A stretch of DNA of 27,523 bases from Candidatus Hodarchaeota archaeon (GCA_016839785.1 JAEOTQ010000138.1:1-27523); one strand, 5' to 3'; shown: positions 4,465 to 27,523, counted from the stretch's first letter. Numbers and translations are program-made. The notes: generated by a model not told the origin, from the letters alone.

Positions 4465-5016
4465 TTAGTTCTCGATAAGAAGTTTCCCCAAAGCAACAAA
4501 AGGATCGTAGTTATTTTGTCGGTTAATGGCTGAAGCTTGAATATAAGGAGTAATTAAACCAGTCATTGATGAAATATGATTAGCGAATTCTTGTGCTTCT
4601 TGATGAGATACAGTTTCTTCGCTTGATTCTAATAGATCTATTTTATTTCCTACTAATACAAGGGGAATTATTCCTGTTTGGTCTAGGATTTCCTCTAGCC
4701 AAGAAGAAAGATTTGTAAATGATTCCCTTCTTGTGATATCAAAAACTAATATGACTCCGTCACTCCTATTGTAGAACTGAGGGCGAATCATTTTGAACGT
4801 TTGTTGACCAGATAAATCCCAAATTTGGTATGTTAATTCCGTTGAATCCAAAGTAAAAATTTTACGACCAATATCGACTCCCATAGTCGGCTTATAGCCC
4901 TCAAGAAATGCGCTATCTTCATCTAGAAATGTTTTCACAAAAGTAGTTTTGCCTACTGCGAAATCTCCGCAGATAACAACTTTGTACGTCTCATTAGTAG
5001 ACATTGGATGTGCCAA
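4465..5016 (-). CDS. Rab/Ras-like small GTPase (eukaryotic-signature type)
   Basis: G1 GDFAVGKT, G2 YKPTMGVD, G3 WDLSGQ, G4 GNKID, G5 ASA. No C-terminal Cys prenylation motif. The start may be the ATG at 5004 rather than the TTG at 5016. Confidence 0.93.
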   Translation of the reverse strand: MAHPMSTNETYKVVICGDFAVGKTTFVKTFLDEDSAFLEGYKPTMGVDIGRKIFTLDSTELTYQIWDLSGQQTFKMIRPQFYNRSDGVILVFDITRRESFTNLSSWLEEILDQTGIIPLVLVGNKIDLLESSEETVSHQEAQEFANHISSMTGLITPYIQASAINRQNNYDPFVALGKLLIEN

Positions 5017-5425: not shown

Positions 5426-6967
5426 TTATAATTTGACATCTAAAAGTCGTGGAACTTTCCACGATACTTTTTGAAAATCGTACCACTCCTCCTGTAAACC
5501 TTTTGCACGATAAACTGAATGAATTTGTCTAACCTGCCAAGATAATTGAGTTTCAATCCAATTAAGAAAATTCAAGGAAAGAGGAGCAATCAATATTGTC
5601 TTCTTTTCTGTTGAAAGGATAGATGCCCATGGTAACAAATGTAGAAAAGTGGGTGCTGTACATTCCCATTTAGGAGGAATTTCTACCCAATACAGATCAA
5701 GTGAATATTCATTTAGGATATTCCGAACCGTAAACGTGGGTCCAGCAATTTTCTTTGAAAAAAACTTGGCAAGTAAAGCAAGATCAGCTTGAGTAAAGAT
5801 GGAATTATGATAATCCTCCCCAAGTTTGATCGGGAGGTTTCCAAAGGAGAATGCCTTAAAAGTCTTAATGTACACCTTTATGGCTTGTTGAGGGGATTCC
5901 AAGACTTTATAATTGAGATTATTGGATAATCGAGGAGTAATACACCCTAATTTCAACGTTACATCTTTTGAATTAATTCTTCTTCTGCTTTCAATTGAAT
6001 TCTTGAATTCTGGGGGTATATAGCCATCTTCCCACCCGTTGTCTGCAGAATATAGTGTTAAAGAGGACCCCGCTTGAGTTGAAATAACTGGTTCAATTGA
6101 TACGTCCGTAAGAGTATTATTTCTTACTTGTTCTTCAAAATGAGTTATAAGTTGAGGTACAGATTCACTGGGAGTATAGATAAAACCAAAAAATGAATTG
6201 GGACAGTTAGGAGTGCTATAAACATTACTCATCCCCAAAACAAAATTGTCTGGGGAATTAAAATCTAAAATGGATTCAAATTTTGATTTCTCAACCAAAT
6301 TTAGCTTAAACATTGAAATACTTATTCCAAAGGCCTCTGGAAACATCCACACCCCCCATCTTGCATCAAGACGAGAGAATAGATGGTGTAATCCACGAAA
6401 CTGCTTTGACACGTGGACATTTTTCGCTATCTCTCGAGTTAAATAATGCTGATCCATTGCTCGTAAAGGGTCTGAATTGACCATCGAATAAATAATTCTT
6501 AAGATATTCATTTGAGTCTCAGTTAAAGGGTCATGTATTTCATTACAGTAATACTGTAATAATTCCCACTTAAGATTCTTAAGAGAAGTCTGATTTTGTA
6601 AAAGTTGAAAAAACCCCTGTGTGTTGGTGTCTCCTCGTAGAACACGTACAAGATATTGTATGAAATTGTCAGCATGGAAACTTGCTTCAACCAATAAACG
6701 TCTTGCGTTCAGAAAAAAAGTATTTGAAAACCACAAAAACGGTGTATTAAAATATTCAATTTCGTCCATGGTATTTCGGACGAATTGATCCATACTAGCT
6801 AAAAATCTGTCTCGTTCCCCTTGAGTGCTCACACTACCTTGAGAAAGAATTTCAAAAACGGCACTAATTAAGATCTGTTCAGATGCAGAATAGTTCGTAA
6901 TAAGAGGTGGTATACGTTTAAGGATCGTTTGTAAAAATCGGTTCCAAGTTTCTCTTCGATAGGTCAT
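5426..6967 (-). CDS. Large hypothetical protein, possibly with degenerate tandem wHTH/Lrp-AsnC-like modules
   Basis: 513-aa ORF. PLTETQMNILRIIY...FPEAFGIS resembles an Lrp-type HTH-linker-ligand domain, and a second similar helix (FTQADLALLAKFF) occurs later. Confidence 0.55.
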   Translation of the reverse strand: MTYRRETWNRFLQTILKRIPPLITNYSASEQILISAVFEILSQGSVSTQGERDRFLASMDQFVRNTMDEIEYFNTPFLWFSNTFFLNARRLLVEASFHADNFIQYLVRVLRGDTNTQGFFQLLQNQTSLKNLKWELLQYYCNEIHDPLTETQMNILRIIYSMVNSDPLRAMDQHYLTREIAKNVHVSKQFRGLHHLFSRLDARWGVWMFPEAFGISISMFKLNLVEKSKFESILDFNSPDNFVLGMSNVYSTPNCPNSFFGFIYTPSESVPQLITHFEEQVRNNTLTDVSIEPVISTQAGSSLTLYSADNGWEDGYIPPEFKNSIESRRRINSKDVTLKLGCITPRLSNNLNYKVLESPQQAIKVYIKTFKAFSFGNLPIKLGEDYHNSIFTQADLALLAKFFSKKIAGPTFTVRNILNEYSLDLYWVEIPPKWECTAPTFLHLLPWASILSTEKKTILIAPLSLNFLNWIETQLSWQVRQIHSVYRAKGLQEEWYDFQKVSWKVPRLLDVKL

Positions 6968-19372: not shown

Positions 19373-20281
19373 TTATTTCCCAGGACATAAGGGTTTGTTA
19401 CTAATTAAGAGCTCTGGATTTTTATTCCGAGTGTTGTTCATATCATTATATGTATTATATCCTAAGATATGGAATTGACTGAAGACCTCTCTGACAGTAG
19501 GAGTATCTCGATTCGATAATAACCAGTGCAATGAAAGATCTGATAAAAGCTCTTTTAACAAATAGATGTCTATTTGATTGAATTTTTTTCCATACAACGA
19601 TCCTTTCTGAGCAACATCATAATAAGGGGGATCCAAATAAAGGAAAGATCCATTTTTCTCTTCATTTCTAGATAATGAACCTATTATGTCTTCATAACCA
19701 AAATTAGTAATTTTTACCCTTTTTTCCTGAAAAATCCTATAGATAATATGCCAAATACTCGGTTTATTCTCATACCACTTTCGGTGAGCTTTTGCATTAC
19801 TATAACCACCTCCAGCTCCATTAGGGGAGCAATTAAGAATAACTAATCTCCTTATCGCGCGTTCTAAAGTTGTTGCTGGGTTTGACTCTTTCCATTGATA
19901 ATAATCATCCTTTTCGATAGGTTCTAATGATTTGACAAATTCTATGAGTTTCTCTAATAACGAAAAGTCGTTTAAACAGGATAAAAGCGCAAATATTTCA
20001 GGATCTTTATCATTTAACCAAACTTGTGATACTCGTGGAGATATTGTAATGAATACATTACCTAAACCCGCAAAAGGTTCCACAAAATAATGAATTTTCT
20101 TCGGAATCGATAAGTATAGTGGGAGATGTTTTTTCTTATCACTCTTGCCTCCAGGAAAACTAGCAATGGTGGTACGTTTTGGAAAAAACAGTTGTTCATC
20201 AGATAAAGTTGAATTATCAGACCTTTTTTCCACATTTATAGACTCCAATCTTAGGTCGAGAATAGGAATACTATGGTGCAA
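19373..20281 (-). CDS. DNA N6-adenine methyltransferase, Dam/D12 class
   Basis: FPGGKS, FVEPFAG (motif I), LNDKD, YLDPPYY (motif IV), WLLSN and ELLISN. The start is uncertain and could be an internal GTG near 20233. Confidence 0.88.
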   Translation of the reverse strand: MHHSIPILDLRLESINVEKRSDNSTLSDEQLFFPKRTTIASFPGGKSDKKKHLPLYLSIPKKIHYFVEPFAGLGNVFITISPRVSQVWLNDKDPEIFALLSCLNDFSLLEKLIEFVKSLEPIEKDDYYQWKESNPATTLERAIRRLVILNCSPNGAGGGYSNAKAHRKWYENKPSIWHIIYRIFQEKRVKITNFGYEDIIGSLSRNEEKNGSFLYLDPPYYDVAQKGSLYGKKFNQIDIYLLKELLSDLSLHWLLSNRDTPTVREVFSQFHILGYNTYNDMNNTRNKNPELLISNKPLCPGK

Positions 20282-20285
20282 ATTA

Positions 20286-20735
20286 TCAAGTAAAATTCAC
20301 CTTTATATTCTTAAATTTATCTTCTAGGCCAGTTGTAAATTGACTGAACTGTTTTAATTCCTCAATTTCATTAATTCTAACTGCACGGAAAAATTGATAC
20401 AAAAGTTGTCTGGGATATGGATCAATAACTCCATGACCTTTACGTTTCTGAAGTTCTGCCTTCATTCCACTCCACATATGCCTCCCCTCTTTATCAAAAT
20501 CCAAAAGTAATATGATCACTTGAAAAGAGTAAATTTGATCTGCAATACTGGTCAATGAAATACCTTTTCTTGCCAGTATCTTACCTTGGATTAGTTTGAT
20601 ACCTATTGCATCCAAAGCTTCAATGTCTCGGTTTCCTTCGACTACTAGAACAACAGGTTCAGTGATCGTGTTACAATATTTAATAAAATGAAGCAATAAA
20701 TCCAGAGGGACTTTAGTGGACGGTTTCATTTTCAT
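20286..20735 (-). CDS. Stand-alone TOPRIM-domain protein (small primase-like/RNase M5-like)
   Basis: VLVVEGNRDIEAL and ILLLDFDKEGR give the E and DxD motifs; ends with EIEEL. Confidence 0.85.
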   Translation of the reverse strand: MKMKPSTKVPLDLLLHFIKYCNTITEPVVLVVEGNRDIEALDAIGIKLIQGKILARKGISLTSIADQIYSFQVIILLLDFDKEGRHMWSGMKAELQKRKGHGVIDPYPRQLLYQFFRAVRINEIEELKQFSQFTTGLEDKFKNIKVNFT

Positions 20736-20743
20736 TAAAATAT

Positions 20744-22267
20744 TTATTCCCTGGCTAGAAGCATACCCTCTATAGTGACTGGTAAATCTCCCTTAGTTAA
20801 TTCAGCTTGTGCTGCTGTTAGTTTCGTATCATTAGACGCGTGTAACGTAAACAAAGGCTCACCCCGTTTAACAGAATCTTTCTTTTTATGGAAATATATC
20901 CCAGCACGTTTATCCATAGGAGCTCCAGCGGCACGCGCAGCTCGTCCTATCACTTTATTATTAATTTCAACAACGTAACCACTTTGAGGAGCTAAATAAT
21001 CATATGTTGCTGATCCTACTTCAATATCTTCGGGCTTCAGGTTTGAATCAGCATTTTGGGCTCCAATTATTTCCTGGAATTTTTGATAGGCCTTTCCTGA
21101 ATTCAAAATATCATATGCCATTTCTTGGCCAGAACCGACAATTGCTTTTCCAGCCATTTCTAAGAGAATTCCTGCTAAGGAGGTACTTTTTCCAACTAAG
21201 GAATGAGGAGCCTCTAAAGGATGCATTAAGCTAGTTAATGCTTCTCGAGCTTCTAAAGCGGGGCCGATGGCGTTACCAACAGGTGAACTACCATAAGTTA
21301 TACCACTTTCAATACGAATTCCCACTAAACGACCCAATTCAGCAAACCGATGAGCGATACGTTTACCATCATCTAAATTGGGAACTTTTGTACCGTACCC
21401 AGTGGGAATGTCTAAAACAAGAAATTTCACTCCCATAGCGACTTTTTTGGAAATTACAGAAGCCATCATCATTGGCTCAGGGTCAATGCCTAGAGGGTAC
21501 TGAACATCACGGATGATTTTTTCGTCAGCTGGAACAATATTTAAACCACCAGTCCAAGCTACTAGCCCCCCAACGTTATGGGCAATATCTACCATTTCAT
21601 CAATGGTGAATTCAATGTCACATCCAAGAGCTTCCATAGTATCCGCTGTTCCAGAGGGACTAGTGATAGCACGTGAGGAAGTTTTTGGGATAGTCAACCC
21701 AACAGCAGCGATTATAGGAACAACAAGGAGCGTAACCTTATTTCCTGGAACTCCACCTAAAGAATGTTTATCGAAAATTACTGTTTCGCCCCAATTAATC
21801 ATTTGCCCTGAGTGAGCCATTGCATTGGTGAGACATTCAATCTCTCCAATACTCCACTCTTGAAGCATTTGGGAGGTAAGAAATACAGACACTTCAAGGG
21901 GGGTCATATTGTCGAGAGTGATGTCACTAATAATCTGGTCTATTTCATTCTTTGTGAACATTCTGCCAGGTTGAGCTATTCGCTGTTTAATAATCGAAAA
22001 ACTTTTTGATATCGTTCTCCCGATTGATTGTAGTTTCACCATCTCGCCTTCTGCTACACCAAGCTTATTCATCATAACTTGTGACAGAGCTATTTCATTT
22101 TCTTCCAAAAAACATTTTAATTTGAAAACTTGCCCAACTTTTTCTTCTGTCCCTTTAAAAGATAATATAAACTTTGCTTGTGTAACTATTTGCTGATTAT
22201 TATTAGTTGAAATGATTACGGTATCTCTTGGATCAATTTTTGATGTTACTACTTTGAATTCTGGCAT
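20744..22267 (-). CDS. AMP (nucleoside 5'-monophosphate) phosphorylase, thymidine phosphorylase family
   Basis: DKHSLGGVPGNKVT, PKTSSRAITSPSGTADTME and ARAAGAP, with an N-terminal extension of about 80 aa typical of archaeal AMP phosphorylase. AGGTGA RBS. Confidence 0.93.
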   Translation of the reverse strand: MPEFKVVTSKIDPRDTVIISTNNNQQIVTQAKFILSFKGTEEKVGQVFKLKCFLEENEIALSQVMMNKLGVAEGEMVKLQSIGRTISKSFSIIKQRIAQPGRMFTKNEIDQIISDITLDNMTPLEVSVFLTSQMLQEWSIGEIECLTNAMAHSGQMINWGETVIFDKHSLGGVPGNKVTLLVVPIIAAVGLTIPKTSSRAITSPSGTADTMEALGCDIEFTIDEMVDIAHNVGGLVAWTGGLNIVPADEKIIRDVQYPLGIDPEPMMMASVISKKVAMGVKFLVLDIPTGYGTKVPNLDDGKRIAHRFAELGRLVGIRIESGITYGSSPVGNAIGPALEAREALTSLMHPLEAPHSLVGKSTSLAGILLEMAGKAIVGSGQEMAYDILNSGKAYQKFQEIIGAQNADSNLKPEDIEVGSATYDYLAPQSGYVVEINNKVIGRAARAAGAPMDKRAGIYFHKKKDSVKRGEPLFTLHASNDTKLTAAQAELTKGDLPVTIEGMLLARE

Positions 22268-22278
22268 TCTTTCACCTA

Positions 22279-22319
22279 AGTCTCGTTCCCAAGATATCTC
22301 CTTTCGCGAGATGGGGACT
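22279..22319 (-). promoter_or_regulatory. Possible structured 5' leader (GAAA-capped stem-loop) of AMP phosphorylase
   Basis: The minus strand reads AGTCCCCATCTCGCGAAAGGAGATATCTTGGGAACGAGACT with nested complementary segments. It lies between a TTTATA box (22338-22343) and the AGGTGA RBS. Confidence 0.35.
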
Positions 22320-22514
22320 ATGCACTCTTCTTTGTAGTATAAATATTTAGTCCTTTTTCAACGAAAATTATTTGGATTAGAGAGGGTTTAAGGTTTATTA
22401 GGAAAGAGACATAAGCTGAATAAACCATGTTGGAATCTAATTCAGGTGAAATATTATTTTCGTGTGAAGTAATGTAAAAAAGATAAGAAAAAATTACAGA
22501 GGAAGAAGATTACA

Positions 22515-23804
22515 TTATTCCTCTGGTTCTTTCTTCATTTTGACAACCATTTGAAAATTCTGAGCTAGTGAATCATAAAAATCGATCAATGTCTCTAAAT
22601 CATCTGCCATCAAGCTACCCCCACGACCCATTTCACCAATTTTACGTAACATTAACCGATCCGCTTCACCTAAACCAATTGCATAGAGGACTACTTCTGG
22701 GTATTGTTCGACATGTTGCTTTACAATTGGAATGGGGTTTACTCCAAGTCCATTTCCCTTATTGGGGTTGCCATCGGTTAGAACAATAATCATTGTAGGA
22801 TTCTTCTTCTGAATTGTAGGATTATCGTCGAAGTTGTCAATGCTTTTGTATGCTTGGTCGAGTGCTCCACTCAAAAACGTTAAACCAGTGCTTTCTGCGG
22901 TTTTTTGGACAACATGATCAATTATACTTTCAATTCCTGCTTTTTTTGTCTCACCAACACAAGAGATGACATTTGAATCTCCGAGGGTGTATTTCTCCAC
23001 CTCACCTGAGAAAGTCACTAACTGAATTTGCTCACCCCATCCTTTAGCAATCTTAAGTGACATGAATAACATTATAGCCATAGCAGCGGCATCAACCCTG
23101 GACACTTTCTTCCCATCCTGAAATTTCTCAATGAACAGATTCAACTCATCTGATTCATCTAAACCTTTCTTTAATCCTTCTAATGCACCACTAATATTTT
23201 TAACTTTCATATCCTTTTTTGACATACTTCCTGATACATCAAGGACTAAAACAGCGTTGAAACTCATCTCAGTAAATGGAATGATGTTAATTTCCACTTC
23301 CCGCCCAGTTGGATCAACAATTCCGATATCTTCATCAGGAATCGGGGGGTCTGCTCCAAGAAATCTTACAGTTAGATTTCCAATTGGGCAATCTTCCCAA
23401 GCAATTTGCAGATTGTTGAATACGGGACGGTTTTTGAGCAATGTTGACAACTGTTCAAATTCAGTTGCGATCCACAAGATAGCTTCTTCAACTTCTTGTC
23501 CTGCAAGAGGCTCTATACCTAGTTTAATCGATTTAATACCTGCTGTAGCTTTAACTGCTTCAACTTCGACTGCATCCCCATCGGAAATGTTCGCTGAAGA
23601 GAGAACACTACCATCTACCGCAATTGTTCCCTGTTCCACTTCATCCGAAGAAAGAATTTGCACAGCACCCCAATCCTCCCATTCTGTAACCATTTTAACA
23701 TAATCGAATTCATTAATGGCTAGTTTTTCAATATCAAGAGTGTGGAGATAAGCTCTCCCTTCAATATTTCCTACATTTACAACATTCAGCGGAATTTTGG
23801 TCAT
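22515..23804 (-). CDS. Cdc48/p97 N-domain (double-psi barrel plus CDC48_2-like subdomain) fused to a vWA domain; no AAA ATPase
   Basis: GRAYLHTLDIEKLAINEFDYV...GTIAVDGSVLSSANISDGDAVEVE and LKNRPV...RFLGADP follow the Cdc48 N-domain pattern. The vWA MIDAS is present: LVLDVSGSM, TGLT, IIVLTDG, plus YAIGLG. AAGGAG RBS. Confidence 0.82.
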   Translation of the reverse strand: MTKIPLNVVNVGNIEGRAYLHTLDIEKLAINEFDYVKMVTEWEDWGAVQILSSDEVEQGTIAVDGSVLSSANISDGDAVEVEAVKATAGIKSIKLGIEPLAGQEVEEAILWIATEFEQLSTLLKNRPVFNNLQIAWEDCPIGNLTVRFLGADPPIPDEDIGIVDPTGREVEINIIPFTEMSFNAVLVLDVSGSMSKKDMKVKNISGALEGLKKGLDESDELNLFIEKFQDGKKVSRVDAAAMAIMLFMSLKIAKGWGEQIQLVTFSGEVEKYTLGDSNVISCVGETKKAGIESIIDHVVQKTAESTGLTFLSGALDQAYKSIDNFDDNPTIQKKNPTMIIVLTDGNPNKGNGLGVNPIPIVKQHVEQYPEVVLYAIGLGEADRLMLRKIGEMGRGGSLMADDLETLIDFYDSLAQNFQMVVKMKKEPEE

Positions 23805-23909
23805 CGTAAAGTCTCCTTACTAAATTTATCCTTTATTATTTCAGTCTAGATTGTTTTTCCCTTTAAAAATTAAATCCTTTGAGATGAACGAACATTATGA
23901 TATCAATTT

Positions 23910-26900
23910 TTATAAATCCAAGTTCTTTCTTTTTTCGAAAGTAGATTTCGTAGTTAATCCGTACACCCCGATTGGCTCGGATAATAAGTGCATTGGAAGA
24001 ATACCTTTTTCAGTACGGATTTGAGCATCAAAGATTAAGTATCCACACTTTTTGGGTGTTTTAAATTTTACAGTCGGTGCACTAAACTCATCCCCTTTAT
24101 CTATATACCGTTTTAATTGTAAACTGGTTAATTTTTTTGTCTCACCTTGAGGGAAAGTGTTTACATATATTGCGATACTAACAGGTGGAAGAGATCTAAG
24201 AAAATGAAATACAAAATCAACAGCATAATGAGTTTTTGGTTCTACACCCTGCCACAAATCATTTTTTGATCCAGCCCGCGTAACAAATGACCAATCAACC
24301 ACTATTTCGCGCAAAACAGGAACATGTATACTTTTAAAAGCTCTATTTTTCTTTAAAAGTCCTGTGGTTATACGGGCTAGAATATAGAAGGAACTATGCT
24401 GATAATCTATTGATAAATCAATACTTCGTGCGAATTCAAATGAGGCACGTGGTTTTAGAGTAAATTTTTCTTCATAAATTACGATAGGTGTTGAGGAAGC
24501 CTGTGTAGCCAATAATAATGTTAGATCTCCCCTTTCTTCTTTCTTTGAATCATTGGTTGCTTTGTAAATGCACTCTACAGATCCAAAATTACTCGTGATA
24601 TAGAATTCTTTAGGCGAAATACTAATTTCATCTTTACGCTCAACTGTAAAGACAAAATTTTTTGGTAATAATCGATGATTTGTAGAAGTGACTGCTTCTA
24701 CTCGAAGCTTTAACTTCCCATATAATTCTCCTAAACTGATAGAACAAGGGATTCTAACCATTTGACGCTTTTCAAGTCTTGAAATATCCACAAACGTCCT
24801 TAAAGTGGCTATTTCATTATTTGTTTGATTATCATAAAATCTCAGTGTTATTGGGTTGTTGCGGAATTGATACATGACTTTTTTAATATCGCTAAATGAG
24901 AATTCAATATAGCCAAATAACTCGGGACCAGATATTAGTGCTGGAAAGACCGCAGTCTGCTTTTTTGGAAAAGGTTTGAACTTAGACTCTTCTTCTTTGA
25001 GATGTTCTCGGAAGAACACGACTCGCTTTGCTTCTATTTCCTGGCGTCGTGTACGCATGATATTTGCAATTTTGGAATTAATTTTTTGGTACTTCGGTTC
25101 AATCTCAATCATAGGTGAATAGATTTCGAGATCCTCATTTTCATCAAATGCAGAAATCACCTGTTTTTCTTCTACTTTTACCACTTGTTGTGGTATAGTC
25201 ACTGGTTCTTTCTTTGCAGCTTTTGGTTTAGCTCCAACTTCTACAGGCTTTTTAGGTTTTGGAGATTCAGGTGGTTTTGTTTTTTTACTTGGAACTTTTT
25301 TCTTGGGTGGAGTTTTTCTTGGAACTACAGCAGGTTCTTTTTTTGGTATTTCTGTAACAGGTTTCTCTTTAGGAGCCACAGGTTTCTTTTTCTTTCGTTT
25401 TTTAGGTATCGGGCTTGGTGTACTCTTAAATTCCTGCCGTGTTGCAATATCTTGTTTTAGGAGTTGGGTTAAGTTCTGTTGTTGTTCATCAACCTCTATA
25501 AAAGAGTCAGGAGGATTTTCAACAAGGAACGAAGAAAAATCACCTGCAACCTGAGGAGGATAGGTGAGTTTTTCGGTGTAATACACTTCTTTAAGAAATT
25601 CATTCATATTTTGACCTTTGTCTGTATAGAGAGAGAAAAGATAATCACATACTGAAAATGGGGGAGCAAATTTTTTCGATCCTAAGACTGGTAGAAGGAT
25701 TTGGTCTAAATATGCGGAGTTAAATTCCAGTAATTCGTCTTCGATGTAAATTAGTAAAGCTAACACTGAATGCATTAATTTGGAAGCTTTAACTCCATTT
25801 TCAATATCGTAATTATAAAACCAAGCAAATTCTCCTGTTAGATTCTCATCCCTGGTAAATTGGGCTAATAGTCCAAATTGAACAGCTTTTCTGCGATTTT
25901 CGTACAAGCTCAGGGAAGATACCGTCGGTACTGGTTTTTTTTGTTTAATTAACTCTTTTGTTTTTTGAGCGAGGGCTTGTATCAGTAATACCATAGCTAA
26001 TCGATTTTCCCTCCAAGGTTGTGCATCAAAAAATCTGAGCTCTATAGTCGAGTAATCTGTATAAGGAAAAAGATCAATCATTCGATCTTCAGGTGGAACT
26101 TTCTTTATTGCACGGGCAAAGTCTTCTCGTGTGGTCATATCATCTATAATAGGTAAATATTGAGGAATATTTGGTCCCATTTGGCCCGTATTATTAGCTA
26201 GTCGATATGAATGAATTCCCCTACTGATTACTTGTTTTTTCCCATCTTTTTCCTTAACAATTATTTTACCGCTGGGTTTTTGATTGAGAAAAGGAGAGGT
26301 AGAACTTAATGCAATTAAATGTGGAATGTAGTTCCGAAGCATATTGTACACAGGTGCTCGAAAAAATGAAGGGATTCCAATATGATGATGTTCCCCACAT
26401 GTTAAACCACTCCGTACCCGTTTTTCCATGGGATTTAAACCTATAGGTAATAGAGTAAATTTGTTTTTTACTTTTGATAAGCCATGTGCGGCAGCTGCGT
26501 ACAGAGAATCAATCCAAAATGCAATTTCTTCAAGATACTCACAGGGAGGGGTCACTAATTCCAATAACCAAGTTATTTGGGATATATTAGGGTCAGGGCC
26601 AAATACATTGACTCGTACCGTTCTTTTACCTAACCGATAATGAATAAAAATGAAGTTTAACCGTTTTTCCCTTTTTATTTCTTCAGTTACTTCAATCTTG
26701 ACGATTTTTTTTGCGATTGTCTTTGGGGTGTGTTTTGCTTTTTTCAAACGTTCAAGGTACTTAGCTGCTTCAGCAAACATCTCGTCCCATGTACTTAACA
26801 ATTCATTTCCTACAAGTACCTCTCCTGTAGCAATATCCACAAGGTGATTTTCAACTTCAATCCCATGGGAGAAGAATAATGGGGTCTCCAATAAATAGTC

Positions 26901-26921
26901 TTTAAGTTCCATTTTTTTCAC
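23910..26921 (-). CDS. GCS2/YbdK-family carboxylate-amine (glutamate-cysteine ligase-like) ligase fused to a Lys/Pro-rich linker and C-terminal beta-sandwich-like domains
   Basis: GIEVENHLVD, LELVTPPC, TCGEHHHIG, LIALSSTSPF and TIELRFFDAQ. Low-complexity linker at about aa 497-575 and beta-rich C-terminal ~340 aa. The start is GTG 26921 or ATG 26912. Confidence 0.85.
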   Translation of the reverse strand: MKKMELKDYLLETPLFFSHGIEVENHLVDIATGEVLVGNELLSTWDEMFAEAAKYLERLKKAKHTPKTIAKKIVKIEVTEEIKREKRLNFIFIHYRLGKRTVRVNVFGPDPNISQITWLLELVTPPCEYLEEIAFWIDSLYAAAAHGLSKVKNKFTLLPIGLNPMEKRVRSGLTCGEHHHIGIPSFFRAPVYNMLRNYIPHLIALSSTSPFLNQKPSGKIIVKEKDGKKQVISRGIHSYRLANNTGQMGPNIPQYLPIIDDMTTREDFARAIKKVPPEDRMIDLFPYTDYSTIELRFFDAQPWRENRLAMVLLIQALAQKTKELIKQKKPVPTVSSLSLYENRRKAVQFGLLAQFTRDENLTGEFAWFYNYDIENGVKASKLMHSVLALLIYIEDELLEFNSAYLDQILLPVLGSKKFAPPFSVCDYLFSLYTDKGQNMNEFLKEVYYTEKLTYPPQVAGDFSSFLVENPPDSFIEVDEQQQNLTQLLKQDIATRQEFKSTPSPIPKKRKKKKPVAPKEKPVTEIPKKEPAVVPRKTPPKKKVPSKKTKPPESPKPKKPVEVGAKPKAAKKEPVTIPQQVVKVEEKQVISAFDENEDLEIYSPMIEIEPKYQKINSKIANIMRTRRQEIEAKRVVFFREHLKEEESKFKPFPKKQTAVFPALISGPELFGYIEFSFSDIKKVMYQFRNNPITLRFYDNQTNNEIATLRTFVDISRLEKRQMVRIPCSISLGELYGKLKLRVEAVTSTNHRLLPKNFVFTVERKDEISISPKEFYITSNFGSVECIYKATNDSKKEERGDLTLLLATQASSTPIVIYEEKFTLKPRASFEFARSIDLSIDYQHSSFYILARITTGLLKKNRAFKSIHVPVLREIVVDWSFVTRAGSKNDLWQGVEPKTHYAVDFVFHFLRSLPPVSIAIYVNTFPQGETKKLTSLQLKRYIDKGDEFSAPTVKFKTPKKCGYLIFDAQIRTEKGILPMHLLSEPIGVYGLTTKSTFEKRKNLDL

Positions 26922-27523
26922 TCTTGTGCCAATAATTCAGTTAGTTTAGCATGTAGTTTCTCCAAGGATAGTTTTTTTGCTCTTTTCAAAGATTTTTGAG
27001 TTGAAAAAAGAGGGAAAATACAATGCTCATTATAGTTAACCTCATGGATAGACTGATGAACAGATTGAAGTAGGATTTCTTGTAGATTGGTTGTTTCATA
27101 GATAATAAATGAAATTTTTGATGATTCTTTGCCCAGAGTGAGTATTTGGACTACTTGGTTCTTATTATTGTCATATCCCAAATCTATTCTCAGGTAGTTT
27201 CCATCAGTGGTTATGAATTTCTTTAGAAATTGGAGAAAAATATCCTTAGGAACCTTATACTTGAGTTGAGAGGTTTTACTGGTTATTTTATTCCATGCGA
27301 CTGGGATTAAGTCTAATGCGTTAGCCCCTAAGATTTTAAATGCAATATTGAGAGGATTCTTCTCTGTGTACTTCTCAAGTAGCATTGTACGAAAGATTTT
27401 TGAAAATAGGAATGCTATTACATCTGTAGCTTGTAGAACACTAAAATAATTATGATCTGTTCCAAATAAGAGTTTATCCTCCCAATTTGGAACGTCCATT
27501 ACATGGTTAAAGAAGACTTCGAC
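26918..27523 (-). CDS. Amidohydrolase-superfamily (TIM-barrel, Amidohydro_2-like) protein, C-terminal part with an extra C-terminal region; 5' end truncated by the window
   Basis: The frame is open to the window edge (VEVFFNHV-MDVP...). DKLLFGTD and KILGANALDLI match the strand-8 FGTD and terminal GxNA motifs. The stop overlaps the ligase GTG (GTGA). Confidence 0.7.
   Translation of the reverse strand, partial: VEVFFNHVMDVPNWEDKLLFGTDHNYFSVLQATDVIAFLFSKIFRTMLLEKYTEKNPLNIAFKILGANALDLIPVAWNKITSKTSQLKYKVPKDIFLQFLKKFITTDGNYLRIDLGYDNNKNQVVQILTLGKESSKISFIIYETTNLQEILLQSVHQSIHEVNYNEHCIFPLFSTQKSLKRAKKLSLEKLHAKLTELLAQE

What the first reader, a model, noticed from the sequence alone, without database searches (positions are those of the whole stretch)
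22515..27523. Candidate protein-tagging/turnover system: amidohydrolase + giant GCS2-type ligase + Cdc48N-vWA adaptor
Seen: three co-oriented genes. The amidohydrolase stop overlaps the ligase start (GTGA), and the Cdc48N-vWA gene follows after 105 bp. Known: the glutamine-synthetase/GCS fold includes protein-modifying ligases (PafA in pupylation, with Dop as deamidase/depupylase), Cdc48/Ufd1-type N-domains bind substrates and cofactors, and vWA domains serve as adaptors for AAA+ machines and the proteasome (Rpn10, MoxR partners). Inference: this may be a writer (ligase), eraser or activator (amidohydrolase) and reader/adaptor set that glutamylates or peptide-tags proteins. I know of no described system with this composition. 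Caveat: the 105-bp gap is AT-rich and could hold its own promoter, and genes beyond the window are unseen.
Basis: partly seen in the sequence, partly recalled or inferred. Interest (0 to 1): 0.85.

Follow-up and report, generated by a model that had tools for sequence, protein, structure and literature searches.

The report
Asgard ligase-hydrolase-vWA gene trio
Three neighbouring genes of an Asgard archaeon (a metal hydrolase, an ATP-dependent amide-bond ligase with a long tail, and a docking protein built like the front of the eukaryotic nutrient-sensing protein DEPDC5) are kept together across Asgard archaea and look like one undescribed system whose target is still unknown.

Summary
On the minus strand lie the last 201 codons of an Amidohydro_2-type hydrolase (A, cut by the contig end), a 1003-aa YbdK/GCS2-type carboxylate-amine ligase (B) and a 429-aa Cdc48N-like + vWA protein with a complete MIDAS metal site (C). 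The 4-nt A/B overlap and the 105-nt B-C gap are as described. The trio is inherited together. Of 400 Asgard genomes, 225 have all three, 133 none and 42 one or two. In all ten complete same-genus loci the order is A-B-C, and other families keep the genes close in other orders. Natural fusions exist: C-B with active-looking sites, and A-C as inactive copies. B and A keep their catalytic residues. C is the most conserved and its best whole-chain fold matches are Iml1/DEPDC5 and p97 N-D1. I read it as one complex that makes and removes (or primes) an amide bond on a docked, probably protein, substrate. That function is inferred, not shown. A's nearest folds are small-molecule enzymes, which keeps a metabolite reading alive. 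Nothing links it to the proteasome or to Cdc48. I found no paper describing it. This scan has met the same module before in other genomes.

The parts
26918..27523 (-). Gene A, 3' part only (last 201 codons): Amidohydro_2-type metal hydrolase. It holds the last barrel strand with the invariant Asp (FGTD) and a poorly conserved C-terminal alpha/beta domain.
   Evidence: 65% identical to aa 266-466 of the 466-aa orthologue L001:7160-8560. D288 is invariant and present in the window copy; orthologue model with pLDDT 91.2 and Amidohydro_2 fold matches.
25542..26921 (-). Gene B, ligase domain (aa 1-460): YbdK/GCS2-type ATP-dependent carboxylate-amine ligase.
   Evidence: One search gives the invariant residues E22, E24, N25, E121, H178, H180, R196, H201, S209, E294, R296 and D299. 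One search matches two core motifs to YbdK 1r8g/1tt4 at E 5e-6.
25167..25424 (-). Gene B, Lys/Pro-rich low-complexity tether (about aa 500-585).
   Evidence: Translation. One search shows this is the least conserved part of the protein (block identity 0.28-0.35).
23910..25166 (-). Gene B, conserved Arg-rich helix region and beta-rich tail (aa 586-1003) plus the stop codon.
   Evidence: invariant P725, G780, G973; weak profile matches to the tails of long B forms of other families (i-E 8e-5 to 8e-3). CARDB-like lead, score 0.89, lead only.
23805..23909 (-). 105-nt AT-rich spacer between B and C, with GGAG 8 nt upstream of the C start. A promoter of its own is possible.
   Evidence: the spacer is 86-126 nt in 10 of 11 same-genus loci and 555 nt in L002 by my first-start ORF calls.
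23277..23804 (-). Gene C, N-terminal Cdc48N-like region (aa 1-176): double-psi barrel plus a second subdomain.
   Evidence: CDC48_N 25.7 bits. CDC48_N in 39 of 43 family members, best E 9.1e-11; weak profile hits to p97/VAT N domains; pLDDT mostly 85-95. Foldseek p97 N-D1 at E 3.8e-12.
22515..23276 (-). Gene C, vWA domain (aa 177-429) with a complete MIDAS (D189-x-S191-x-S193, T309, D344), and the stop codon.
   Evidence: all five MIDAS residues are invariant in 43 sequences. Z 20.0, rmsd 2.1 A over 178 residues to ITIH4 9c4f_I; TFIIH p44 Z 19.5; Rpn10 Z 18.5.
22268..22514 (-). Spacer after C with T-rich runs (terminator-like) ahead of the AMP phosphorylase gene.
   Evidence: read by eye. No terminator scan was run.

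Best explanation
A, B and C are the three subunits of one Asgard-specific module. B is an ATP-dependent carboxylate-amine ligase. By analogy with its superfamily it would activate a carboxylate as an acyl phosphate and join it to an amine. A is a metal-dependent hydrolase that either removes that amide or prepares the substrate for ligation. C is a motor-less docking hub. Its Cdc48N-type domain and its MIDAS metal site, which in other vWA proteins clamps an acidic side chain or carboxylate, hold the enzymes and the substrate together. Because the enzymes are wrapped in protein-binding parts, I think the substrate is a protein, or a ligand presented on a protein, rather than a free metabolite. 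Those parts are the vWA, the Cdc48N domain, the tethered beta-rich tail, inactive scaffold copies, and a ubiquitin-like fusion in one branch. Shown: the gene set, its co-inheritance, the fusions and the intact catalytic and metal-site residues. Inferred: complex formation, the chemistry, the nature of the substrate and the role of A. My odds: one functional module 0.9; an amide write/erase (or prime) cycle 0.6; a protein-borne substrate 0.4-0.45.
For: Co-inheritance: B is in 252, C in 247 and A in 249 of 400 Asgard genomes, each in 47 of 85 genera, with the same families positive and negative. All three occur in 225 genomes, none in 133, two in 31 and one in 11. Linkage: of 47 loci centred on B homologues, A lies within the fetched DNA in 33, C in 34 and both in 28. 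The order is A-B-C with a 4-nt A/B overlap in 10 of 10 same-genus loci that have both flanks. In other families the order is A-B with C 7.3-7.6 kb away, A then C convergent on B, C-x-B-A, or B-A. In six genomes of family f31 that I compared by eye, A-C lie 10-12 kb from B on the same contig (coordinates). Fusions: P0265 and P0357 (962 and 968 aa, two metagenome contigs) are C followed by B. The C profile matches at E 7.7e-44 over aa 3-409, and the B ligase matches at 31% identity, E 1e-54, over aa 456-884. The MIDAS (D-T-T-T-D) and 9 of 12 ligase residues are kept. An 876-aa A-C fused paralogue lies 3.6 kb from B in L031. Catalytic integrity is shown (B; A: D18, H20, H22, H172, D204, H235, D288; C MIDAS). 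C is the most conserved: 80-97% identity within the genus, against 53-85% for B and 51-71% for A. One C branch carries a C-terminal ubiquitin-family domain (PF00240, E 8e-9). No anti-phage defence family matches A, B or C.
Against: No experiment and no structure of a complex exists. A's nearest solved folds are small-molecule enzymes: a LigI-like lactonase 4i6k at E 7.7e-9, then IDCase and ACMSD. B's only sequence relatives with solved structures are YbdK proteins, and by recall those act on free amino acids. A ligase and a hydrolase of the same bond that are translationally coupled would burn ATP unless regulated. In the largest family (f20) C was not within about 8.5 kb of B-A in the 3 loci read. 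The A-C fused copies have lost their metal and MIDAS residues, so they show association, not activity. Genomes of related species are not independent samples, so the co-occurrence counts overstate the number of independent events. The 47 loci were picked from the best-scoring matches, not at random.
Confidence: 0.45

Rival explanations
1. Small-molecule metabolism. B makes a gamma-glutamyl-type or other small amide (a thiol, polyamine or cofactor conjugate) and A hydrolyses it or a related lactone or amide. C and the tail only regulate or localise the enzymes.
For: B's only PDB sequence relatives are YbdK-type ligases, and NCBIfam names it a carboxylate-amine or glutamate-cysteine ligase relative. 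A's best fold matches are all small-molecule Amidohydro_2 enzymes. Ligate-then-hydrolyse logic is known from gamma-glutamylation pathways such as Puu and ergothioneine (recalled, not from a call).
Against: No transporter or further pathway gene is conserved beside the trio across families. Every NCBIfam equivalog cut-off is missed by far (64 bits against 371). It is hard to see why a metabolic pair would be co-inherited, and in some lineages fused, with a MIDAS-vWA/Cdc48N protein and inactive scaffold copies.
Confidence: 0.3
2. Signalling scaffold of the DEPDC5/Iml1 kind. C is an archaeal counterpart of the NTD-SABA half of the GATOR1 scaffold and works with small GTPases or Roadblock proteins. 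A and B make and destroy an amino-acid-derived ligand that C senses.
For: The best whole-chain Foldseek matches of the C model include Sea1/Iml1 (8ae6_W, E 3.2e-12, 453 columns) and DEPDC5 (9o5e_H, 9xzy, 9v0j_C; rmsd about 10 A, TMq 0.33-0.35). A review states that the DEPDC5 NTD resembles the NSF/Sec18 N domain and that SABA resembles a Sec23 domain, which is the same domain order (passage in PMC8534245). A small GTPase gene precedes the operon in 8 of 10 same-genus loci and in this genome. A Roadblock/LC7 gene lies directly upstream of the long C form in the two f19/f20 loci scanned.
Against: p97 N-D1 scores equally well (E 3.8e-12). TM-scores are low. No member of the C family hits the Iml1 Pfam family (0 of 43). 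As a single domain, the vWA part matches ordinary MIDAS vWA proteins best. GTPase and Roadblock genes are very common in Asgard genomes (recalled), so adjacency may be chance, and the GTPase neighbour is confined to one genus. The p303 neighbour shows no longin or Roadblock match.
Confidence: 0.1
3. The three genes are unrelated neighbours, and the cluster in this window is a chance arrangement.
For: Gene order differs between families, and C is not adjacent in f20.
Against: The family-level presence and absence of all three is identical, and 225 of 267 genomes carrying any of them carry all three. Natural fusions exist. The A/B overlap is conserved.
Confidence: 0.02

Closest known systems
YbdK / GCS2 carboxylate-amine ligases (Pfam PF04107; E. 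coli YbdK 1r8g, Salmonella 1tt4)
   Same: B shares the core motifs (G-x-H-x-H-x-G ... P-H-x-I-A-L-S-x-x-S-P and D-x-x-P ... T-I/V-E-x-R-x-x-D) and the N-terminal G-I-E-x-E motif. ATP-dependent amide-bond formation is therefore expected.
   Different: B is about 80 residues longer in the catalytic domain. It misses every NCBIfam equivalog cut-off. It carries a Lys/Pro tether and a roughly 420-aa beta-rich tail. It is found almost only in Asgard-labelled records. It is always paired with A and C.
Pupylation (PafA ligase, Dop deamidase/depupylase, Pup) of actinobacteria
   Same: The logic is the same: a glutamine-synthetase/GCS-superfamily ligase that could write an isopeptide, with a hydrolase that primes or erases, encoded together (the comparison is recalled knowledge).
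   Different: B has no Pup_ligase family hit. The hydrolase is a TIM-barrel Amidohydro_2 enzyme, not a PafA paralogue. No Pup-like gene was looked for. No proteasome genes lie in the loci read. A vWA-Cdc48N subunit has no counterpart in pupylation.
DEPDC5 / Iml1 (Sea1) N-terminal NTD-SABA half of GATOR1/SEACIT
   Same: The domain order is the same (Cdc48/NSF-N-type domain followed by a vWA/Sec23-trunk-type alpha/beta domain), and these are the top whole-chain Foldseek matches (review passage).
   Different: There is no sequence-profile link. C keeps a full MIDAS. C lacks the SHEN, DEP and CTD parts. Its conserved partners are a ligase and a hydrolase, not NPRL2/3. Common descent is not shown.
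MIDAS-type vWA adaptors (Rpn10, TFIIH p44/Ssl1, BatB, ITIH, Mg-chelatase D subunit)
   Same: The vWA domain of C superposes at Z 18.5-20 with rmsd 2.1-2.5 A and has the DxSxS...T...D metal site.
   Different: C is fused to a Cdc48N-type domain without any AAA+ motor. There is no UIM or zinc finger. Its partners differ.
Amidohydro_2 enzymes (PF04909: LigI lactonase, IDCase, ACMSD, gamma-resorcylate decarboxylase)
   Same: A has the TIM-barrel fold and the HxH / H / D metal ligands.
   Different: A is only a remote relative (Foldseek E 1e-8 to 1e-6, 10-15% identity; no PDB sequence hit). It has an extra roughly 115-aa C-terminal alpha/beta domain of unassigned fold.

Membership tests
GCS2 / YbdK carboxylate-amine ligase (PF04107) | Pfam model matched above its gathering score | tested here: met
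   31.3 bits against a cut-off of 21, E 1.8e-7. Only 50 residues (aa 169-218) are aligned.
GCS2 / YbdK carboxylate-amine ligase (PF04107) | Reaches the curated score of a YbdK or GshA equivalog (NCBIfam) | tested here: not met
   the best is NF010039 at 64.3 bits against a cut-off of 371. B is a superfamily member, not an equivalog.
GCS2 / YbdK carboxylate-amine ligase (PF04107) | Conserved core motifs shared with solved YbdK structures | tested here: met
   two motifs align to 1r8g/1tt4 (E 5e-6), and their His, Glu, Arg and Asp residues are invariant in 24 family members.
GCS2 / YbdK carboxylate-amine ligase (PF04107) | ATP-dependent ligation of a carboxylate to an amine | not testable with these tools
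   Needs an enzyme assay.
Pupylation system (PafA/Dop/Pup) | Ligase and hydrolase belong to the Pup-ligase/deamidase family | tested here: not met
   One search lists only GCS2 for B at E <= 0.01. A is Amidohydro_2.
Pupylation system (PafA/Dop/Pup) | Small tag protein gene (Pup-like) in the locus | not tested
   ORFs under 60 aa were not examined.
Amidohydro_2 (PF04909) | Pfam model matched above its gathering score | tested here: inconclusive
   2 of 4 A orthologues scanned match (L012 39.6 bits, L022 48.0 bits, cut-off 26.4). The two same-genus ones and the window fragment do not.
Amidohydro_2 (PF04909) | Metal ligands HxH, His and Asp on a TIM barrel | tested here: met
   D18, H20, H22, H172, D204 and H235 are at least 90% conserved and D288 is invariant; the model (pLDDT 91.2) matches LigI-like, IDCase and ACMSD structures.
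vWA domain with MIDAS | vWA fold | tested here: met
   (VWA_2 36.5 bits, VWA 35.1 bits). Z 20.0, rmsd 2.1 A, 178 residues aligned.
vWA domain with MIDAS | DxSxS ... T ... D metal-site motif | tested here: met
   D189, S191, S193, T309 and D344 are invariant in 43 sequences.
Cdc48/p97/VAT N-terminal domain (PF02359) | Pfam model matched above its gathering score | tested here: inconclusive
   Window protein 25.7 bits against a cut-off of 35.1. 39 of 43 family members match at E <= 10, best 9.1e-11.
Cdc48/p97/VAT N-terminal domain (PF02359) | Double-psi barrel N domain by fold | tested here: met
   p97 N-D1 chains at E 3.8e-12 and below; profile hits to p97, VAT and designed DPBB proteins at E 0.02-0.3.
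DEPDC5 / Iml1 NTD-SABA | Sequence-profile membership (Iml1 Pfam family) | tested here: inconclusive
   the Iml1 family is not among the 25 families shown (of 27 matched) for the 43 members at E <= 10, and the two unshown ones match at most one member each. HMMER's filters drop most weak matches, so remote homology is not excluded.
DEPDC5 / Iml1 NTD-SABA | Two-domain fold match over both domains | tested here: inconclusive
   8ae6_W at E 3.2e-12 and 9o5e_H at 1.1e-11, but TMq is 0.30-0.35, rmsd is 10-12 A, and p97 N-D1 scores the same.
DEPDC5 / Iml1 NTD-SABA | Partners NPRL2/NPRL3 and Rag-type GTPases | not tested
   Only neighbouring genes were read: a divergent GTPase in this genus and Roadblock in f19/f20. 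No binding or co-occurrence test was run.

The most novel reading that the evidence does not exclude
Asgard archaea have a protein-conjugation system of their own that needs no E1 or E2. The GCS-type ligase B joins a carboxylate (a Glu side chain, or the C-terminus of a peptide or ubiquitin-like tag) to protein amines. The hydrolase A primes or erases the mark. C presents or reads the mark through its MIDAS and Cdc48N-type domains, and is an archaeal relative of the N-terminal half of the eukaryotic nutrient-signalling scaffold DEPDC5/Iml1.
Probability: 0.15. Interest if true: 0.95.

Novelty: new variant of a known kind. Interest (0 to 1): 0.68.

Why it matters
The trio is present in about two thirds of the 400 Asgard genomes searched. 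Its docking subunit is as conserved as housekeeping enzymes. Even so, I found no paper on it and nobody knows what it acts on. If it modifies proteins, it would be a third prokaryotic route to ATP-driven protein tagging, beside ubiquitin-like systems and pupylation, and it would sit in the closest archaeal relatives of eukaryotes. If C is truly related to DEPDC5/Iml1, it would give the first archaeal foothold for the scaffold of GATOR1. A survey of Asgard genomes reported NPRL2-like proteins but, in the one passage that mentions it, named DEPDC5 only as a GATOR1 subunit and reported no Asgard homologue. If it turns out to be metabolic, it still defines an unknown Asgard-specific amide compound. 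All three proteins are soluble and of ordinary size, so the question can be tested directly at the bench.

Tried and rejected
- Complex prediction of the B tail (aa 585-1003) with C scored 0.11 and 0.01 against a mark of 0.32. The controls were not run. This is no verdict either way.
- I looked for the genomic context of the C-B fusion P0265 in metagenome contigs and genome contigs. No locus was found, so I cannot say whether A lies beside it.
- The search for public RNA runs listed no RNA holder. No reads were laid, so nothing can be said about expression.
- The PDB sequence search with the A family profile gave no hit at E <= 0.1.
- The Atlas look-up of A's C-terminal domain gave no usable hit. 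For the B tail it gave only a CARDB-like lead at 0.89.
- I tested whether the separate 361-381-aa (f16/f17) and 600-649-aa (f19/f20) genes next to short B forms are split-off B tails. None matched the B profile even at E <= 10. There is only a weak TRAPPC13_C hit for one of them (E 5e-4, below cut-off). This stays unresolved.
- I tested whether C's N domain is a recent copy of the N domain of the neighbouring AMP phosphorylase. There is no pairwise similarity. The only links are profile-level: TIGR03327 at E 4.6e-4 and 4ga5 at E 0.0048.
- The upstream GTPase and p303 got no informative PDB sequence hit and no Pfam hit for p303.
- The anti-phage defence library gave no hit for A, B or C.
- The word-index search for short stand-alone relatives of the ligase outside Asgard found only 20 proteins, most of them partial. 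Of the 12 that carry a source name, all are Asgard-labelled except one labelled Bathyarchaeia.
- pdb_via re-ranking filled its 50 rows with vWA domains, so it gave no Z-score for DEPDC5 or p97.
Full report
**What is in the window**

The window is a whole 27,523-bp contig (C96) of a 4.04-Mb, 248-contig, 36% G+C assembly. Names attached to near-identical proteins place it in the Hodarchaeales/Heimdall group of Asgard archaea. At 22515-27523 the minus strand carries three ORFs.
- A, 27523..26918, is 201 codons long and runs off the contig end.
- B, 26921..23910, is 1003 aa.
- C, 23804..22515, is 429 aa.

A's TGA overlaps a GTG start of B (GTGA). An ATG 9 nt further in is the start used by the 1000-aa database copy. 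The B-C spacer is exactly 105 nt, is AT-rich, and has GGAG 8 nt before the ATG. T-rich runs and 247 nt separate C from the next gene, an AMP phosphorylase (TIGR03327, 543 bits). The one limit is that the 'amidohydrolase' in the window is only a C-terminal fragment and gives no family hit on its own.

**The three proteins**

B has a GCS2 hit above Pfam's cut-off, but over 50 residues only. It also has YbdK-type NCBIfam hits far below their equivalog cut-offs. In an alignment of 24 family members the residues E22, E24, N25, E121, H178, H180, R196, H201, S209, E294, R296 and D299 are invariant. The family profile finds only YbdK structures in the PDB (1r8g, 1tt4, E 5e-6), through two core motifs. 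Behind the roughly 460-aa ligase domain come three further parts:
- a poorly conserved Lys/Pro tether (about aa 500-585);
- a conserved Arg-rich helix;
- a roughly 400-aa tail.

The tail is weakly homologous to the tails of long B forms of other families. A CARDB-like, that is Ig-like, character is only a lead. Earlier reports of this scan call the tail three beta-sandwiches, and I did not check that.

Full-length A orthologues are 463-482 aa. Two of the four I scanned match Amidohydro_2 (E 6.8e-10 and 1.9e-12). D18, H20, H22, H172, D204 and H235 are at least 90% conserved, and D288 is invariant and present in the window fragment. The AlphaFold model of the orthologue L001:7160-8560 has pLDDT 91.2 and pTM 0.91. 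It shows a TIM barrel plus a C-terminal alpha/beta domain at aa 353-466. Its nearest solved folds are a LigI-like lactonase (4i6k, E 7.7e-9), IDCase, ACMSD and related Amidohydro_2 enzymes.

C has VWA and VWA_2 above cut-off and CDC48_N below it. CDC48_N is found in 39 of 43 family members. The MIDAS residues D189, S191, S193, T309 and D344 are invariant in 43 sequences. The C model (pLDDT 83.9) gives a canonical vWA at Z 20 (ITIH, BatB, TFIIH p44; Rpn10 at Z 18.5).

**Are the genes linked elsewhere?**

Yes. Searching 400 genomes of the phylum gave B in 252, C in 247 and A in 249. Each is in 47 of 85 genera, and the same families are positive and negative for all three. Combining the three lists gives 225 genomes with all three, 31 with two, 11 with one and 133 with none. 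In the window's own genus, each of the five mismatches I looked at was a hit cut at a contig end or a partial or weak match, and I did not inspect the mismatches in other families. Related genomes are not independent, so the strength lies in the family-level concordance, not in the raw counts.

I then fetched DNA around 47 B homologues. These were chosen from the best-scoring matches. Eight further loci centred on C were not counted. A lies in the fetched stretch in 33 of the 47, C in 34 and both in 28.
- **Same genus:** all ten loci with both flanks have A-B-C with the 4-nt A/B overlap.
- **f7:** A-B are 24-45 nt apart, and C lies 7.3-7.6 kb away on the other strand in 7 of the 9 loci (of the other two, one contig ends and in one C lies just beyond the fetched stretch).
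- **f13, f14 and f8:** A is followed by C, and C converges on B.
- **f16 and f17:** the order is C-x-B-A, as one operon.
- **f19 and f20:** the order is x-B-A.
- **f31:** A-C are adjacent and lie 10-12 kb from B on the same contig, in the six genomes whose coordinates I compared.

**Fusions**

A full HMMER pass over 1.84 billion representatives shows that the B ligase family is small: 188 clusters at E <= 1e-3 and 76 at E <= 1e-30. Among them, P0265 (962 aa) and its cluster mate P0357 (968 aa, on a different contig) are a complete C joined to the ligase.
- The C profile matches at E 7.7e-44 over aa 3-409.
- BLASTP to the window's C gives E 6e-19, and to B's ligase domain 31% identity at E 1e-54.
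- The MIDAS reads D-T-T-T-D, and 9 of 12 checked ligase residues are kept.

Separately, an 876-aa gene 3.6 kb from B in L031 is A-like at its N-terminus and C-like at its C-terminus. Related long genes lie beside the modules of L037 and L054. These copies have lost the metal ligands and the MIDAS, so they are scaffolds, not enzymes. Other B relatives sit at the end of 2,200-3,800-aa proteins or carry zinc ribbons or a helix-hairpin-helix domain.

Together the fusions tie C physically to both enzymes. They fit C being the most conserved of the three: 80-97% identity within the genus, against 53-85% for B and 51-71% for A.

**What C looks like**

The best whole-chain Foldseek matches are Sea1/Iml1 of the yeast SEA complex (8ae6_W, E 3.2e-12), human DEPDC5 in GATOR1 entries (E about 1e-11, rmsd about 10 A) and p97 N-D1 (E 3.8e-12, rmsd about 19 A). 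All have TM-scores of only 0.3-0.35.

A review states that the NTD of DEPDC5 resembles the N domain of NSF/Sec18 and that its SABA domain resembles a Sec23 domain (passage read, PMC8534245). That is the domain order of C. A survey of Asgard genomes reports NPRL2-like proteins but, in the one passage where DEPDC5 occurs, names it only as a GATOR1 subunit and reports no Asgard homologue (10.1101/2020.10.19.343400).

There is no sequence-profile link to Iml1, so I treat this as a resemblance of layout, not membership.

One side branch of the C family (P0202 and P0203, and the loci L041 and L042) adds a C-terminal ubiquitin-family domain (PF00240, E 8e-9) and keeps the MIDAS. By recall, both Cdc48 N domains and the MIDAS of Rea1 bind ubiquitin-like domains. 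This is a hint that the family handles such folds, nothing more.

**Mechanism**

I commit to one complex in which C docks the ligase and the hydrolase to a substrate, B makes an amide bond with ATP, and A removes it or prepares the substrate.
- **Shown:** the gene set, the co-inheritance, the fusions and the intact sites.
- **Inferred:** binding, chemistry, substrate and direction.

I favour a protein-borne substrate (about 0.4-0.45) for three reasons. The enzymes are embedded in protein-binding modules and inactive scaffold copies. No pathway or transporter gene travels with them. No anti-phage defence family matches.

The main rival (0.3) is a small amide metabolite. It is supported by the YbdK kinship of B and by the lactonase/decarboxylase kinship of A.

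A signalling reading built on the DEPDC5 likeness (0.1) draws on the GTPase upstream of the operon in this genus. That GTPase is seen in 8 of 10 loci, and in this genome at the end of contig C125. It also draws on a Roadblock gene upstream of C in f19/f20. Such genes are abundant in Asgard genomes (recalled), so these adjacencies may be chance.

**Literature and earlier scan notes**

Five full-text searches for this composition found no relevant paper. Subscription-only papers are not covered.

This scan has met the same module before on other DNA. Those notes reached the same picture: an undescribed Asgard ligase-hydrolase-vWA trio, a DEPDC5-like layout and dead fused copies. I re-derived each point used here from my own calls.

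As far as those notes show, three points are new here: the active-looking C-B fusion, the ubiquitin-like fusion branch, and the GTPase-p303 pair that precedes the operon in this genus.

Noticed in passing
G000 contig C125:30423-36072 (not in the window); orthologues L001:2037-7080: The DNA upstream of the window continues on another contig. A HerA-like ATPase of about 970-1040 aa is transcribed divergently. Then come a divergent 197-aa P-loop GTPase (68-92% conserved within the genus) and a 303-aa protein without family hits, directly before gene A. This order is kept in 8 of 10 same-genus loci. The first 265 codons of A are not assembled in this genome.
   Followed up: partly
P0202, P0203; L041:9691-11448 (-); L042:2213-3964 (+): A branch of the C family carries a C-terminal ubiquitin-family domain after a linker. 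It ends ...PASTAG or ...PASTAGCK. The gene sits directly after a 370-aa coiled-coil gene, with no A or B nearby.
   Followed up: partly
P0250, P0255, P0256, P0262, P0271, P0282 (2232-3804 aa); P0243, P0251, P0257 (about 1240 aa): Relatives of the B ligase domain sit near the C-terminus of giant proteins whose first 1500-3300 residues have no Pfam hit. One (P0262) has a helix-hairpin-helix DNA-binding domain. Others end in a double zinc ribbon.
   Followed up: no
L043:11592-11981 (-), L051:13778-14170 (-): In families f19 and f20 the C homologue is about 750 aa long, with extra N-terminal barrels. In L043 it is directly preceded on the same strand by a 127-130-aa Roadblock/LC7 gene. In L051 that gene lies on the opposite strand, divergent from C. 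An actin-family gene lies 3.6 kb away in L043.
   Followed up: no
A1 alignment; f7 orthologues such as P0167 and P0171: C orthologues of family f7 end in a poly-acidic tail of about 65 aa. B carries a Lys/Pro-rich basic tether here, and an earlier scan note reports a far longer one in an f7-sized 1089-aa form (unchecked). An electrostatic pairing is conceivable but untested.
   Followed up: no
window 20744-22267 (-): An AMP phosphorylase (TIGR03327, 543 bits) follows C in the window and in 6 of the 12 same-genus loci (L001-L006). Its family profile weakly matches C's N domain (E 4.6e-4; PDB 4ga5 at E 0.0048), but the two proteins of this window show no pairwise similarity.
   Followed up: yes
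window 19373-20735 (-): A small Toprim-like protein (149 aa, PRK04017 type) lies next to a Dam-family N6-adenine DNA methyltransferase (302 aa). The methyltransferase is present only in the closest relatives.
   Followed up: no
window 4465-5016 (-) and 5426-6967 (-): A Ras-family small GTPase (PF00071, E 6.9e-39) lies beside a 93-aa ORF and a 513-aa ORF that have no Pfam hit. Proteins with a related GTPase domain lie between C and A-B in the f7 loci.
   Followed up: no
P0073/P0177, P0081/P0194, P0114/P0247: A few B and C homologues are labelled Zixibacteria, Bathyarchaeia or Thermoplasmatota by their sources. In two of these cases the B and C homologues report the same longest-contig length, which suggests one contig and possibly mis-binned Asgard DNA.
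   Followed up: no
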